Positions 35 to 4,234 of a stretch of 23,174 nucleotides of DNA are shown piece by piece. The position numbers were made by a program, and so were the translations under genes. How positions within the stretch are numbered: the first letter of the stretch is position 1; every line of letters starts with the position of its first letter. Below the pieces are notes generated by a model. It saw nothing but the letters and a program-made list of their open reading frames with translations. It made no database searches and was not told where the DNA came from. Source of the stretch: Candidatus Jordarchaeia archaeon. GTDB taxonomy: Archaea; Asgardarchaeota; Jordiarchaeia; Jordiarchaeales; Jordiarchaeaceae. The DNA lies in assembly GCA_029856435.1 (NCBI GenBank), contig JAHQXB010000032.1:1-23174 (forward strand). The letters are read 5' to 3'.

Positions 35-1636
35 TTAGTATTTTATTTCTTGGGAGTTTGAGAGGATTTCTTTGGGTGTTTTTAGGCTGTTTATGTCCAG
101 TGAGTAGTAGCGTTCCATTTCTATTTTTACTTTTTCTGGTAGGTTGATTCCGTCTCTGTGTGCCCAGTAGGTTTTTCCTTTGGGTTTTTGTAGTGGTTCT
201 CCTTGCTTTATTATGATTATTCCATTTTTTATGGTGTAGAGTGTTTGGGAGAGGGCTTTGATTAGTGCCTCTGTTTCCTGTGCAGGGTCTTGGGTTTGGG
301 GGTTGAAGTCGTATATTGCGATGTCTGCGTCTGAGCCTACTGATAGGTTTCCTTTGTTTGGTAGGTTTAGGGATTGTGCGGGGCTGGCGCGGGTTATTAT
401 TGCTATTTCGTAGAGTGTGTATTCTCGATTGATGGAGTGTAGTGGTGTGTCGGCTTCTAGTTTGACTTGGTCTCGGGCTTTTTTGCTTAGGAGCCATCCT
501 ATTATTTGGGGATAGTGGGTGATTAGTCCCAGGTTGGGGTGATCTACCGACAGCTGGATTTGCCAAGGATCCTTTACTTTTAGTGCTAGTTCCAGCCCTG
601 TGGCCCACATGATGCTCCCAGTTTTATCCATTTTATATTCGGTGGGTGTGGCTCCAAAGACTGCTTCAAGTTCAACTTGGTCAGTGAATATTTTTTTGCC
701 TCTACTAGTTGGGATTAGCAGCTGGTTGTCTGCATAGAGGCTTATTGTTTGGTGGGGCACCATTTGTCCTATGTCTGCTTCTACGTTGGGGTGACTGTTT
801 ATGTATTCTGCTATTTGTTCTGCTTGGGATTCAATGGATTCGTTTCCTCCGTAGCTGTGTAGTTGTGCATGTGCAAGGTGTATGGTTCTCTTCTTTTTGT
901 TGGGCTTTATTTCTTCTAGAGCTTTTAGTGTTTTGAGTGTTGTTTTGTAGTTTCCTGGCTTTCCTGCATTGTTGGGATGTATGTGGACGGGGTGTGGCAG
1001 TCCCAAGCGCTCATTTGCCTCTGCTATTATTTTGATGACGTCTAGGGGTGACACTCCGAGGTGCTTTATGGGTTCTTCTATGTTTGTTATTTCCTTTTTG
1101 AGGCTCCACATTTCGCTTCCTGTGGGGTTTAACAGTTTTACTCCATAGGTTTTGGTGGATTCCAGTAGCCATGAGATTATGGTCGCGGCTTCCTCTGCGG
1201 ATTTTTTCCTCACTGCGGGTAATAGATACCAGTAAACGTCTAGTAGCAATAGGCAGGCGTGATCCAGTGAGGGTATATCTAAAAATTCCAAGTGGGTGTG
1301 CAAAGCCTTTGTGGGTGAAACTGCAGCTTCGACGGCGAATGTATAGCCCATTCTTGAATATGTTAAGCCCACTTTTGGAGCGGTGAAAAGAAACTCGTCG
1401 GATGAAGGGGGGAAAAGCATGCGTGCAAAGTTCACATGTTGTGAGGCTATATGGGTGTGAATATCTATCCCGCCGGGGAGAATCATTTTTCCCTTAACGT
1501 CTATGATTTTGGCTTCATTTTCATTCACTGATTCAACTATCACTCCTTTTTTGATGGCTAGGTCCATACGTTCCCCATTTATCTTGTTTGCCGGGTCAAA
1601 AACAAAGCCATTCTTTATGAGAAGTGATTCAATCAT
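35..1636 (-). CDS. fwdA: Formylmethanofuran dehydrogenase subunit A-like amidohydrolase (FwdA/FmdA)
   Basis: Motifs DPANKING, GGIDIHTHIA, RMGYT, YGVK, LGLPHPVHIHPNNAGKPGN, HLAHAQLH, LSVDHPN and GNLSVGSDADIAIYD match FwdA. Start moved to ATG 1636 (MIESLLIKNG), which overlaps the fwdD stop. Confidence 0.88.
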   Translation of the reverse strand: MIESLLIKNGFVFDPANKINGERMDLAIKKGVIVESVNENEAKIIDVKGKMILPGGIDIHTHIASQHVNFARMLFPPSSDEFLFTAPKVGLTYSRMGYTFAVEAAVSPTKALHTHLEFLDIPSLDHACLLLLDVYWYLLPAVRKKSAEEAATIISWLLESTKTYGVKLLNPTGSEMWSLKKEITNIEEPIKHLGVSPLDVIKIIAEANERLGLPHPVHIHPNNAGKPGNYKTTLKTLKALEEIKPNKKKRTIHLAHAQLHSYGGNESIESQAEQIAEYINSHPNVEADIGQMVPHQTISLYADNQLLIPTSRGKKIFTDQVELEAVFGATPTEYKMDKTGSIMWATGLELALKVKDPWQIQLSVDHPNLGLITHYPQIIGWLLSKKARDQVKLEADTPLHSINREYTLYEIAIITRASPAQSLNLPNKGNLSVGSDADIAIYDFNPQTQDPAQETEALIKALSQTLYTIKNGIIIIKQGEPLQKPKGKTYWAHRDGINLPEKVKIEMERYYSLDINSLKTPKEILSNSQEIKY

Positions 1637-2030
1637 TGGCATCCTTTCCCAATAGTTTTCCAAAGAGTTTTTCTGGATCTAACACTTCTTCCTTTGTGGT
1701 TTCAATGCTGGCCTTTAAAACATAGCAGGAATTACTCCCTGTAACATCTATGTCCGGGTCTATTATAGCATTTAACCATGGCCCATTGGGCATGAGTGCC
1801 AATCCCTTTTTGGTCTCGTCTGTTTGGTAGGCTTTAACAACGACGCTCCCAAATTTTGTAGTCACTTTAACACAGTCACCATTTTTAATTCCGCGGCTAC
1901 CCATATCCTCCTTATTCATGAGTATTACTGCTGTGGAATCCACGTAACTTTTTGGGTCTGGATTTTCAACCATCATCCTGTTTTGCTCAATTGACCTTGC
2001 ATTACACAACAGTATTTCCAGCTTACCCAT
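1629..2030 (-). CDS. fwdD: Formylmethanofuran dehydrogenase subunit D-like (molybdopterin dinucleotide-binding domain)
   Basis: MNKEDM..GIKNGDCVKVTTKFGSVVVKA and GLALMPNGPWLNAIIDPD match FwdD; translationally coupled to fwdA. Start chosen at ATG 2030 because the ORF-track N-terminal extension looks non-homologous. Confidence 0.8.
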   Translation of the reverse strand: MGKLEILLCNARSIEQNRMMVENPDPKSYVDSTAVILMNKEDMGSRGIKNGDCVKVTTKFGSVVVKAYQTDETKKGLALMPNGPWLNAIIDPDIDVTGSNSCYVLKASIETTKEEVLDPEKLFGKLLGKDAND

Positions 2031-2340
2031 CAGAAGTCCTACTAAAGACATAGAAATCCGCCTCAGGCAAGCTAACAGAGTAGAAACCAGTACATAAGTT
2101 TTATGAACAAAAAATTTGACTGCACTGTAGCCGACGTCCACTTTTACGTTTTATTAAGTATTCTATCCAACTTTCCTGAGAGGTTCACGAAATTGGGAGC
2201 CAAATCGCCACCTTCACGCCAGCCATAAACGAGTGGGCCCCCTGCATGTAAAAAAGTTACTGTTATATGTTTAAGATTCGGTGGAGCCTCCCATATTTTG
2301 AACAAGTATGGAAGGGGAGCAGACTTAAATTAGAGGCAAG

Positions 2341-2377: not shown

Positions 2378-3270
2378 ATGGTCTTGGTTAAGGGATGGGT
2401 CGCTGAGGTGTTCTCTTCCTACCAAATCCCCCAAAAGGAGGGGGAGGTAAAGGAGAAGGAGGTAGCGTCAGCGGCTCGTGTTATGGAAAGCGTCAGATAT
2501 AGGAGGAGTGGAAGCTATTCCTTCGTCGAATCGCTCGATTCGCGGGCTGCAACCTAGCTATGGGGGAGTTTGGAACTAGGGGCTGCAGGTGGTGCGACAT
2601 CTTATATAACATGCTAAGACGCGAATCACCTGGAGCTCAAAAACCAGACGCAACTCAGCTTAGAGTGGAAGAAAGCCCCGGGACTGGAAAATTCGCAGGG
2701 CAAGCAAATCCCGTAGATCCAGCAACTCTTTGCAGCTATGTGAGAAAACTGAAAACTGCGGATCTTCACTCGGTATCATTTACTGGTGGGGAGCCTTTAC
2801 TTCAAATGGATTTTCTGAGGGAAGTTTCAGAGAACCTTGTCTCAGAGGGTTATATTCTCTTTCTTGAGACTAATGGTTCTTTACCTAGGTGTGCTTCAAA
2901 GGTGGCTGAACTTTTTGAATACTGCTGCTGTGATATTAAAGATGAGTCGGCGGGGGCTGCTTCAGACTGGAGAGCTCTAGTGGAGAGAGAGTTGGAAACC
3001 ATACAGGTTTTAGTTGAGGCAAAGGCAAAGACCTTCGCCAAAGTTGTAGTTACATCCCAAACAAAATCAGAGAATATTGAATGGTATGCTAGGGAGCTTG
3101 CTAAGTTGGGATGCCCCCTATGTATTCAGATTGTATCTCCATATGGCGAAGTGGAGGAAAAACCCACAATAAAACAACTGTTCCAGTTCACGGAGGCCGC
3201 GGCGAAGTATCTCCATAAGAATGACATTTCAATATCAATTCAAGCCCATAAAGTGTTGGGAATACTCTGA
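2378..3270 (+). CDS. queE: 7-carboxy-7-deazaguanine synthase QueE (radical SAM), intron-split: join(2378..2425,2452..2500,2531..2598,2626..3270), 269 aa
   Basis: Spliced N-terminus reads MVLVKGWVAEVFSSYQ|GEGGSVSGSCYGKRQI|FARFAGCNLAMGEFGTRGCRWCD|SPGAQ, restoring the QueE motifs E-x-F-x-S-x-QGEG, F-x-RF-x-GCN and C-xx-CD. Downstream are VSFTGGEPLLQ, LETNG and SIQAHKVL. Exons total 810 nt = 270 codons. queD follows. Confidence 0.9.
2426..2451 (+). other. Putative BHB-type intron 1 of queE (26 nt, frameshifting)
   Basis: ATCCCCCAAAAGGAGGGGGAGGTAAA. Central helix UACC(2420-23)/GGUA(2446-49), bulges AA^A(2424-26) and AA^G(2450-52), intron stem UCCCCC/GGGGGA. Splicing gives CAA|GGA = Q|GEG. The outer exon-exon helix is weak. 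Confidence 0.85.
2501..2530 (+). other. Putative BHB-type intron 2 of queE (30 nt, creates an in-frame TAG if retained)
   Basis: AGGAGGAGTGGAAGCTATTCCTTCGTCGAA. Bulges AU^A(2499-2501) and AA^U(2529-31), central helix AGAU/GUCG (3 pairs plus an A.G mismatch), intron stem GGAGGAG/UUCCUUC, outer helix AGCG/CGCU. Splicing gives ATA T|TC GCT CGA = I-F-A-R. Confidence 0.78.
2599..2625 (+). other. Putative BHB-type intron 3 of queE (27 nt, in-frame, would add ILYNMLRRE)
   Basis: ATCTTATATAACATGCTAAGACGCGAA. Central helix UGCG(2593-96)/CGCG(2620-23), bulges AC^A(2597-99) and AA^U(2624-26), intron stem UCUUA/UAAGA, outer helix CAGGU(G)G/CACCUG. Splicing gives GAC|TCA = CD|S. Confidence 0.8.
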
Positions 3271-3315
3271 ATCTTTCAGAAAGAATATGTATTGCCTTTT
3301 GTATGTACGTTTGCT

Positions 3316-3435
3316 ATGAAAAACCTTTAGGTTTTCATTCTTTATCTAAAAAGCGTAAGCGTATGAGGGTTTACCATGAAAAAGCTTTAGGTTTTCATCC
3401 TTTGTCTAAAGCGCTTTAGTGTATGGGTTTTTGGC
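3316..3435. repeat. Two imperfect 60-nt tandem units, each starting with inverted repeat ATGAAAA-N9-TTTTCAT
   Basis: Units start at 3316 and 3376; the first 35 nt are identical at 32 positions by manual alignment. Confidence 0.85.
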
Positions 3436-3769: not shown

Positions 3770-4234
3770 ATGGTCTACAAGCTTAAGGTGGAAAGAACTG
3801 ACCTAAACTTTTCTGCGGCTCATTTCCTAATACGCCACCCGAAATGTGAGCGTATACACGGCCATAACTATAAGGTGACTATTGAGATCGAGTCTGATAA
3901 ACTGAACAGTCAGCAAATGATAGTGGACTTTCTAGATGTAAGAAACGTAGCGAGGGATATTTGTCAGAAAATGGATCACTACATACTGATACCCACTAAA
4001 GAAAAAGAAGTGGAAATCAAGGAAATGGGAAAAGAAATAGAGGTTATAGCAAACGGGAGGAGGTACATCTTCCCCAAGGATGACGCATTACTTTTGCCTA
4101 TTGAAGCAACCACTGTGGAAAAAATATCCGAGTATATTTATAAACAGCTGAAAAAGTCACTCCTCAAAAACATGAAAATAAGGGTTTCAGTAGAGGAGGC
4201 TGAAGGGTCAATAGGCACCTACACAGAAGAATAG
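3770..4234 (+). CDS. queD: 6-carboxy-5,6,7,8-tetrahydropterin synthase (QueD/PTPS family)
   Basis: FSAAHF, CERIHGHNY, IVDF, MDHYILIP and TTVEKISEYI motifs; downstream of queE. Confidence 0.9.
   Translation: MVYKLKVERTDLNFSAAHFLIRHPKCERIHGHNYKVTIEIESDKLNSQQMIVDFLDVRNVARDICQKMDHYILIPTKEKEVEIKEMGKEIEVIANGRRYIFPKDDALLLPIEATTVEKISEYIYKQLKKSLLKNMKIRVSVEEAEGSIGTYTEE

What the first reader, a model, noticed from the sequence alone, without database searches (positions are those of the whole stretch)
2586..2632. Intron 3: cryptic in-frame intron invisible to ORF callers, next to the Fe-S cysteines
This 27-nt stop-free insert (ILYNMLRRE) follows C-R-W-C-D directly and has the most complete BHB of the three, including an exon-exon helix. 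An annotation pipeline would translate it as a protein loop. Retention might give an alternative isoform. Inference: similar hidden in-frame introns may exist in other apparently intact genes of this lineage.
Basis: partly seen in the sequence, partly recalled or inferred. Interest (0 to 1): 0.75.

Follow-up and report, generated by a model that had tools for sequence, protein, structure and literature searches.

The report
In-frame tRNA-type mini-intron in queE
A 27-base stretch that reads like nine extra amino acids beside the iron-sulfur cysteines of the tRNA-modification enzyme QueE in an Asgard archaeon is almost certainly a tiny tRNA-style intron cut out of the messenger RNA, the third of three in this gene, and it looks translatable only by accident in this one genome.

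Summary
Observation confirmed. Window 2599-2625 is a 27-nt, in-frame, stop-free insert directly after C-R-W-C-D of a radical-SAM QueE gene, and 2586-2632 folds into a near-canonical bulge-helix-bulge (BHB).

It is very probably an intron. The same codon boundary carries an insert in all 18 related loci examined (class Jordarchaeia/Freyarchaeia, Asgard), 15 to 32 nt long. In 16 of the 18 it shifts the frame or contains a stop. The four closest relatives read TAG where this genome reads TAT. Intact orthologs of other lineages, and the solved QueE structure, have nothing there.

Removing this insert and two upstream inserts (2426-2451, 2501-2530) at the BHB cut sites gives a 269-aa protein that aligns without gaps to intact orthologs. 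The same removal gives stop-free N-termini in all 18 loci. Exon 4 is under purifying selection. The genome encodes two EndA paralogs and RtcB.

No RNA data were available, so excision is inferred. A conserved retained isoform is not supported. This scan had already noted three queE introns in other genomes of the lineage. In the papers searched, splicing inside an archaeal coding sequence is confirmed only for cbf5.

The parts
2378..2425 (+). queE exon 1 (M-V-L-V-K-G-W-V-A-E-V-F-S-S-Y-Q)
   Evidence: Aligns to the N-termini of intact orthologs. The ATG at 2378 is inferred as the start.
2426..2451 (+). Intron 1, 26 nt, shifts the frame. BHB core: H UACC/GGUA, bulges AA^A and AA^G, h' UCCCCC/GGGGGA.
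   Evidence: Length is 19-31 nt in 18 loci, and the h' stem is kept with different sequences.
2452..2500 (+). queE exon 2 (G-E-G-G-S-V-S-G-S-C-Y-G-K-R-Q-I plus the first base of F)
2501..2530 (+). Intron 2, 30 nt. The TAG at 2500-2502 is split by the 5' cut. H AGAU/GUCG (3 of 4 pairs), bulges AU^A and AA^U, h' GGAGGA/UCCUUC.
   Evidence: Length is 18-38 nt in 18 loci, with compensatory changes in h'.
2531..2598 (+). queE exon 3 with the radical-SAM motif C-x11-C-x2-C (G-C-N-L ... G-C-R-W-C-D)
   Evidence: The x11 loop is conserved in intact orthologs, so it is protein and not intron.
2586..2591 (+). Intron 3 BHB: 5' strand of the outer exon-exon helix h (CAGGUG)
   Evidence: Pairs with 2627-2632.
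2593..2596 (+). Intron 3 BHB: 5' strand of the central 4-bp helix H (UGCG, exonic)
   Evidence: Pairs with 2620-2623.
2597..2599 (+). Intron 3 BHB: 5' bulge A-C^A. Predicted cut between 2598 and 2599.
2599..2625 (+). Intron 3, the finding: 27 nt, in frame, stop-free here (ILYNMLRRE)
2600..2619 (+). Intron 3 inner hairpin h': UCUUA (2600-2604) pairs with UAAGA (2615-2619); 10-nt loop 2605-2614. T2607 is G in the closest relatives, which gives them TAG.
2620..2623 (+). Intron 3 BHB: 3' strand of the central helix H (CGCG, intronic)
   Evidence: The last base is G, A, C or U among relatives.
2624..2626 (+). Intron 3 BHB: 3' bulge A-A^U. Predicted cut between 2625 and 2626.
2627..2632 (+). Intron 3 BHB: 3' strand of the outer helix h (CACCUG)
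2626..3270 (+). queE exon 4 (214 codons plus stop)
   Evidence: Open in 15 of 15 loci, dN/dS 0.07-0.22. Radical_SAM Pfam hit.
3770..4234 (+). queD (6-carboxytetrahydropterin synthase), the pathway neighbour

Best explanation
Window 2599-2625 is an archaeal bulge-helix-bulge (tRNA-type) intron in the queE pre-mRNA, the third of three mini-introns in the first 250 nt of the gene.

Proposed mechanism:
- The transcript folds locally. Codons for C-R-W pair with codons for S-P-G to form the outer helix.
- The exonic UGCG pairs with the intronic CGCG to form the 4-bp central helix.
- The intron forms its own 5-bp hairpin.
- The splicing endonuclease EndA, here probably a two-subunit (alpha-beta)2 enzyme, cuts after the second nucleotide of each 3-nt bulge: AC^A at 2598|2599 and AA^U at 2625|2626.
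- RtcB joins the exons, giving C-R-W-C-D-S-P-G-A-Q-K.

That the intron is a multiple of three and free of stops is an accident of this genome, one loop base away from the TAG of its closest relatives. It is not a designed coding loop.

Shown: the insert, the fold, its exact coincidence with the protein-defined gap, its conservation at one site with frame-breaking lengths, purifying selection on the exons, and the presence of EndA and RtcB genes. Inferred: actual cleavage and ligation, and the subunit type of EndA.
For: (1) Intact orthologs from Hel-, Loki- and Hydrothermarchaeales-type genomes read C-x-[WF]-C-D-[ST] with no insert (alignment A1; DNA of L023 and L024). So does the solved QueE 4NJG, which reads C-R-F-C-D-T.

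(2) All 18 loci of the class carry an insert at exactly this boundary (11 of 11 genomes). Lengths are 27 (x5), 29 (x3), 30, 31, 32 (x2), 15, 16 and 17 (x4). Only the window and L007 are in frame and stop-free. L002, L003, L004 and L022 have an in-frame TAG and L006 an in-frame TAA.

(3) The BHB cut sites delimit exactly the protein-defined gap. A BHB this good occurs about 2e-6 per (position, length) pair genome-wide.

(4) Removing the three inserts gives a 269-aa product that aligns gaplessly over the N-terminus and is 51-53% identical to orthologs of 261-269 aa. The same removal gives stop-free N-termini in 18 of 18 loci, although every intron varies in length.

(5) Structure is conserved. 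RNAalifold recovers h, H and h'. The fourth h' pair changes U-A to C-G. The first H pair varies among U.G, U-A and mismatches on the intron side only.

(6) Introns 1 and 2 of the same gene show abundant compensatory change in h'.

(7) Exon 4 has dN/dS 0.07-0.22.

(8) The genome has two EndA paralogs, 31% identical, one lacking the aligned catalytic His, and it has RtcB.

(9) Published context: 92-95% of Freyarchaeia tRNA genes carry introns, many at non-canonical positions (PMC11291895).
Against: No transcript, cDNA or peptide evidence was obtained for this gene in this genome.

The BHB is not strictly canonical. G2592 either sits opposite the 3' bulge or wobble-pairs with U2626 and shortens that bulge to 2 nt.

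Covariation within intron 3 is thin: one pair with changes on both sides. Half of each key helix is exonic and fixed by coding.

In four loci of the window's family and in L009 the first H pair is a mismatch.

In the Jord-type family the intron (15-17 nt) has almost no h' helix, so it is a bulge-helix-loop form.

Loose BHB geometry alone is not enriched over shuffles.
Confidence: 0.88

Rival explanations
1. The 27 nt are ordinary coding sequence: a lineage-specific 9-residue surface loop of QueE that is always translated. The RNA fold is incidental.
For: In this genome the insert is in frame and stop-free. The homologous 15-nt insert of L007 is too, and is annotated as protein in P0014.
Against: In 16 of 18 loci the homologous insert shifts the frame or has an in-frame stop, including relatives 95-96% identical. 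Its length varies by non-multiples of three while the flanking exons stay in register. It sits directly after the third cluster cysteine and Asp, where all intact orthologs and the solved structure have S or T. The gene needs two other frame-breaking removals anyway.
Confidence: 0.03
2. It is an intron, but in this genome splicing is partial or regulated. Retention yields a second QueE isoform with nine extra residues, altered or inactive: a splicing-level switch, or an intron on its way to becoming exon.
For: Only here and in L007 would a retained intron 3 keep the frame open.
Against: No conservation of the open frame. The sister genomes have TAG at the third codon, so any such isoform would be strain-specific. 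The differences among the 27-nt copies are a stop, ATG/ATA and GAA/AAA, which is not a coding-like pattern. The insert would move the S/T that follows C-D away from the cluster motif. From memory, that residue is part of the active site in the solved QueE; this was not tested here.
Confidence: 0.05
3. queE is a decaying pseudogene in this lineage, and the three inserts are debris.
For: Unspliced, the gene is broken by a frameshift and a TAG. Public annotations are truncated.
Against: Exon 4 has dN/dS 0.07-0.22 and is open in 15 of 15 loci. The inserts sit at three identical codon boundaries in three genera, and their removal always restores the frame. All inserts share BHB cores with compensatory changes. 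The search of 11 genomes found one strong queE match per genome, and queD lies next to it.
Confidence: 0.02
4. The ribosome skips the insert (translational bypassing or frameshifting) rather than the RNA being spliced.
For: A stable hairpin lies in the gap.
Against: There are no matching take-off and landing codons: GAC before, UCA after. Gap lengths of 15-32 nt, and three gaps in one gene, would need three different recoding events. The BHB geometry with cuts after the second bulge nucleotide explains all three exactly.
Confidence: 0.01

Closest known systems
BHB intron in the cbf5 pre-mRNA of Crenarchaeota (Watanabe 2002; Yoshinari 2006; Yokobori 2009, PMC2738675)
   Same: A protein-coding archaeal gene is interrupted by a short intron whose boundaries fold into a bulge-helix-bulge motif. 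EndA is expected to cut it and an RNA ligase to rejoin the exons. The host lineage has a hetero-oligomeric EndA and many non-canonical tRNA introns.
   Different: The gene (queE) and the phylum (Asgard, class Jordarchaeia/Freyarchaeia) differ. There are three introns in one gene instead of one. The introns are very small (15-32 nt at this site). In this genome the intron is in frame and stop-free. cbf5 splicing was shown experimentally; this case rests on comparative inference only.
Non-canonical tRNA introns of Freyarchaeia and Atabeyarchaeia (PMC11291895; bioRxiv 10.64898/2026.10.13.758758)
   Same: Same lineage, same motif, same size class, same presumed enzyme. Multiple introns per gene are common.
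   Different: Those introns are in tRNA genes, where the exon half of the motif comes from tRNA structure. Here the exon halves are codons for C-R-W-C-D and S-P-G. Neither paper, as searched, reports introns inside protein-coding sequences.
Relaxed BHB / bulge-helix-loop substrates of (alpha-beta)2 and epsilon2 EndA (PMC5829648, PMC2724299)
   Same: The Jord-type 15-17 nt homologs have a central helix and one clean bulge, but the other bulge merges into a loop. The window's copy has a one-nucleotide irregularity at the outer helix.
   Different: Cleavage of these particular substrates has not been assayed.

Membership tests
Archaeal BHB (EndA-type) intron | [quoted passage not shown] | tested here: met
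   UGCG/CGCG (2593-2596 with 2620-2623), bulges 2597-2599 and 2624-2626. RNAalifold draws the 3' bulge as 2 nt because G2592 can pair with U2626.
Archaeal BHB (EndA-type) intron | Flanking helices h (exon-exon) and h' (intron) | tested here: met
   h is 6 bp, offset by one unpaired G. h' is 5 bp with a 10-nt loop.
Archaeal BHB (EndA-type) intron | Cutting after the second nucleotide of each bulge yields a functional mature sequence | tested here: met
   Removal of 2599-2625 gives C-R-W-C-D-S-P-G-A-Q, matching the consensus of intact orthologs without a gap. This holds in 18 of 18 loci.
Archaeal BHB (EndA-type) intron | Structure maintained in relatives by compensatory change | tested here: inconclusive
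   Only one pair has changes on both sides (U-A to C-G). The exon strands are invariant. Introns 1 and 2 of the same gene show clear compensation.
Archaeal BHB (EndA-type) intron | Host encodes the splicing endonuclease and an RNA ligase | tested here: met
   Two EndA paralogs of 192 and 197 aa, each with the N-terminal and catalytic domains. RtcB match with E = 5e-174.
Archaeal BHB (EndA-type) intron | The intron is physically absent from mature RNA | not testable with these tools
   No transcript data. Protein-database searches with the spliced N-terminus found no spliced or intron-less close relative.
Translated protein insertion (loop) | Reading frame and open codons preserved among homologs | tested here: not met
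   16 of 18 homologous inserts shift the frame or contain a stop.
QueE, 7-carboxy-7-deazaguanine synthase (radical SAM) | Cluster motif C-x(n)-C-x2-C, T-G-G-E-P SAM motif, homology to named QueE | tested here: met
   C-x11-C-x2-C and F-T-G-G-E-P-L are present. Radical_SAM Pfam hit with E = 1.6e-8. The best NCBIfam hit is queE_Cx14CxxC, but below its cut-off on the unspliced fragment. The spliced product is 51-53% identical to proteins of 261-269 aa named QueE. PDB 4NJG QueE is the only solved hit.

The most novel reading that the evidence does not exclude
In-frame, stop-free BHB introns such as this one are a stage at which an archaeal intron can be retained. That would give either a condition-dependent inactive or altered QueE isoform (a primitive alternative splicing in a close relative of eukaryotes) or, if splicing is lost, a new protein insertion. 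Intron retention would then be a source of lineage-specific indels in Asgard proteins.
Probability: 0.06. Interest if true: 0.85.

Novelty: new member of a known kind. Interest (0 to 1): 0.66.

Why it matters
Splicing of archaeal messenger RNA by the tRNA endonuclease is confirmed in print for essentially one gene, cbf5. PMC2738675 says so as of 2009, and five literature searches here found nothing later for Asgard coding genes.

This gene belongs to the archaeal group closest to eukaryotes. It carries three such introns, kept at the same codons across a whole class. One of them shows that these introns can be invisible to gene callers.

Practical consequences:
- Public QueE proteins of this lineage are truncated, or in one case carry five false residues.
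- Any alignment-based inference on Asgard proteins (indels, signature inserts, structure prediction) can be contaminated by untranslated mini-introns.

Conceptually, it makes routine mRNA splicing in Asgard archaea directly testable with one RT-PCR.

Tried and rejected
(1) I first suspected that the segment A-M-G-E-F-G-T-R-G between G-C-N-L and C-R-W-C was an intron. Rejected: intact orthologs keep it (C-x11-C-x2-C).

(2) First guesses for the intron 2 borders gave a product one residue short. The BHB-derived cuts (AU^A, AA^U) give K-R-Q-I-F-A-R-F-A-G-C, the expected spacing.

(3) Loose BHB scan of the window: 160 hits against 104-147 in ten shuffles. The motif alone is uninformative.

(4) Genome-wide scan: 525,300 BHB-like candidates, tested for whether removal fuses two coding-like ORFs. 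There was no enrichment over random decoys (0.2% against 0.28%), because gene boundaries mimic rescue. Enrichment appeared only with A-rich bulges (0.13% rising to 1.24%). The clear cases matched introns that other notes of this scan had flagged (pcm, EndoQ, gatE). I could not estimate the number of hidden in-frame introns.

(5) Searches of the protein collection with the 68-residue spliced N-terminus, over longer and similar lengths, found no spliced or intron-less close relative. The best hit was 63% identical.

(6) Rfam and tRNA scans of the window: nothing.

(7) The metagenome locus scan added only two close relatives.

Full report
WHAT IS THERE

The + strand between about 2378 and 3270 encodes a radical-SAM enzyme of the QueE type, 7-carboxy-7-deazaguanine synthase. 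It has a Radical_SAM Pfam hit, and its best NCBIfam hit is queE_Cx14CxxC. queD lies downstream at 3770-4234. Named database relatives place the organism in the Asgard group Freyarchaeota/Jordarchaeia.

The long ORF read from 2503 contains G-C-N-L-A-M-G-E-F-G-T-R-G-C-R-W-C-D, then ILYNMLRRE, then S-P-G-A-Q-K. The conserved N-terminus (V-A-E-V-F-S-S-Y-Q) lies upstream in another frame.

THE OBSERVATION

The region 2570-2650 folds far better than shuffles: -29.2 kcal/mol, z = -4.86. Read as a bulge-helix-bulge it has these parts:
- a 6-bp exon-exon helix, 2586-2591 with 2627-2632
- a 4-bp central helix, 2593-2596 with 2620-2623
- 3-nt bulges A-C^A and A-A^U
- a 5-bp intron hairpin, 2600-2604 with 2615-2619

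The one irregularity is G2592. It is either unpaired or wobble-paired with U2626. RNAalifold on nine relatives finds the same helices without being told.

A BHB of at least this quality occurs about 2e-6 per (position, length) pair in this genome. Here it coincides to the base with a gap defined independently by protein alignment. A relaxed BHB geometry on its own is common and proves nothing.

WHY IT IS AN INTRON AND NOT A LOOP

Intact orthologs from other Asgard and archaeal lineages read C-x-[WF]-C-D-[ST] with nothing in between (alignment A1; DNA of L023 and L024). The solved Burkholderia QueE reads C-R-F-C-D-T.

I collected 18 loci from the class: all 11 species genomes held, two metagenome contigs and five contigs encoding database proteins. 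Every one has an insert at exactly this codon boundary.
- In the window's family the lengths are 27, 27, 27, 27, 27, 29, 29, 29, 30, 31, 32 and 32 nt.
- In the sister family they are 15, 16, 17, 17, 17 and 17 nt.

Sixteen of the 18 shift the frame or carry an in-frame stop. The four relatives that are 95-96% identical at the protein level read ATC TTA TAG where the window reads ATC TTA TAT. The open frame here therefore depends on one base in the hairpin loop (T2607).

A protein loop cannot change length by one or two nucleotides while the flanking exons stay in register. An RNA element removed before translation can.

THE WHOLE GENE

Two further inserts lie upstream.
- 2426-2451 (26 nt) separates S-S-Y-Q from G-E-G-G and shifts the frame.
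- 2501-2530 (30 nt) separates K-R-Q-I-(F) from A-R-F-A-G-C. Its 5' cut splits the TAG at 2500-2502.

Both have 4-bp central helices, although in the window's family intron 2 has an A.G mismatch at the first pair. Both have A-rich 3-nt bulges, and both have intron hairpins whose sequences differ between genomes while pairing is kept.

Joining 2378-2425, 2452-2500, 2531-2598 and 2626-3270 gives a 269-aa protein. Its first 75 residues align without a gap to intact orthologs of 261-269 aa, and it is 51-53% identical to them overall.

The same operation gives stop-free N-termini with the same motifs in all 18 loci. This holds even though the three intron lengths range over 19-31, 18-38 and 15-32 nt.

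The segment A-M-G-E-F-G-T-R-G between the first and second cysteines is not an intron. Intact orthologs keep it, so the motif is C-x11-C-x2-C.

NOT A PSEUDOGENE

Exon 4 is open in 15 of 15 loci, with dN/dS between 0.07 and 0.22.

MACHINERY

The genome encodes two EndA paralogs of 192 and 197 aa, 31% identical. Each has the N-terminal and catalytic domains. In their pairwise alignment the His of the first (G-I-D-H-A) faces Thr/Ser in the second. I read this as a catalytic alpha subunit plus a structural beta-like subunit, that is, an (alpha-beta)2 enzyme of the broad-specificity kind described in PMC5829648 and PMC2724299. This is an inference. RtcB is present.

MECHANISM PROPOSED

The pre-mRNA folds locally. 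EndA cuts at 2598|2599 and 2625|2626. RtcB ligates the exons. The mature mRNA then encodes C-R-W-C-D-S-P-G.

Shown: the anatomy, the conservation, the frame logic and the presence of the enzymes. Not shown: the RNA events themselves. Searches of the protein collection with the spliced N-terminus found no spliced or intron-less close copy.

Pipelines translating the intron as a loop. This has happened for the 15-nt homolog. The public Jordarchaeales protein P0014 contains C-D-S-K-K-R-K-T-P. For the window's close relatives, the public models instead start at the GTG homologous to 2664 and lack the cysteine motif (P0003).

A conserved retained isoform. This is not supported.

Other hidden in-frame introns in the lineage. 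This is reasonable. By simple arithmetic, not measurement, about one third of introns will be multiples of three and a fraction of those will lack stops. At this site, 2 of the 7 multiple-of-three copies are stop-free.

My genome-wide attempt to count them failed. ORF-rescue by BHB-like candidates was not enriched over decoys except for A-rich bulges. In-frame candidates inside genes are swamped by background.

COMPARISON WITH WHAT IS KNOWN

The closest described system is the cbf5 pre-mRNA intron of Crenarchaeota. PMC2738675 states that, as of 2009, splicing was confirmed for no other archaeal protein gene, though others were predicted.

Freyarchaeia and Atabeyarchaeia are published as extreme for tRNA introns: 92-95% of tRNA genes carry them, often several, at non-canonical positions (PMC11291895). 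A 2026 preprint analyses Asgard tRNA introns and finds two EndA paralogs in most genomes.

Five full-text searches found no paper describing BHB introns inside Asgard coding sequences. The library does not hold most subscription journals.

Earlier notes of this scan report the same three queE introns in three other genomes. One of them claims RNA-level support in a relative, which I did not check. Other notes report many BHB introns in protein genes of this same genome. My genome scan recovered three of those independently: pcm, EndoQ and gatE.

VERDICT

The in-frame state is incidental. As a kind it is a new member of a known class, EndA-type introns in mRNA. It occurs in a lineage and at a density (three per gene, conserved class-wide) that specialists would find surprising, and it is a concrete warning for the annotation of Asgard proteomes.

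Noticed in passing
G000:C93:302-1636 (- strand), locus L106: The RtcB ligase gene match (E = 5e-174) has one in-frame TGA inside it. It could be selenocysteine (the lineage is reported to have Sec machinery), another mini-intron, or a break.
   Followed up: no
window 3300-3420: Two tandem copies of a roughly 58-nt unit lie between queE and queD. Each contains an imperfect palindrome (ATGAAAAAC-CTTTAG-GTTTTCAT at about 3316-3338 and again at about 3376-3398). No Rfam family matched. Function unknown.
   Followed up: no
L007 (G003:C11), public protein P0014: The annotated Jordarchaeales QueE (251 aa) starts at an ATG near the end of exon 2 in the wrong frame, reads through intron 2, and reads through the 15-nt intron 3 as S-K-K-R-K. 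This is a concrete case of an intron translated in a database protein.
   Followed up: partly
L019:1178-1756 (G000:C104) and L020:1195-1788 (G000:C64): Two EndA paralogs, 31% identical. The second lacks the His aligned with the first one's G-I-D-H-A, which suggests a catalytic plus structural subunit pair.
   Followed up: partly
G000 contigs C109, C24, C35, C73 (x2), C101, C70, C93 (- or + strand; indices): The genome-wide scan found 22-32 nt inserts with a 4-bp central helix, A-rich bulges and 4-9 bp hairpins whose removal fuses two coding-like ORFs. Three match earlier notes (pcm, EndoQ, gatE); the others I did not identify.
   Followed up: partly
L102, L105 (relatives): In some relatives a DUF366 gene sits between queE and queD. 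It is absent from that position in the window.
   Followed up: no
window 35-2141 (- strand): Formylmethanofuran dehydrogenase subunit A-like (35-1663) and D-like (1629-2141, molybdopterin-binding) genes lie divergently upstream of queE. This neighbourhood is conserved in relatives.
   Followed up: no
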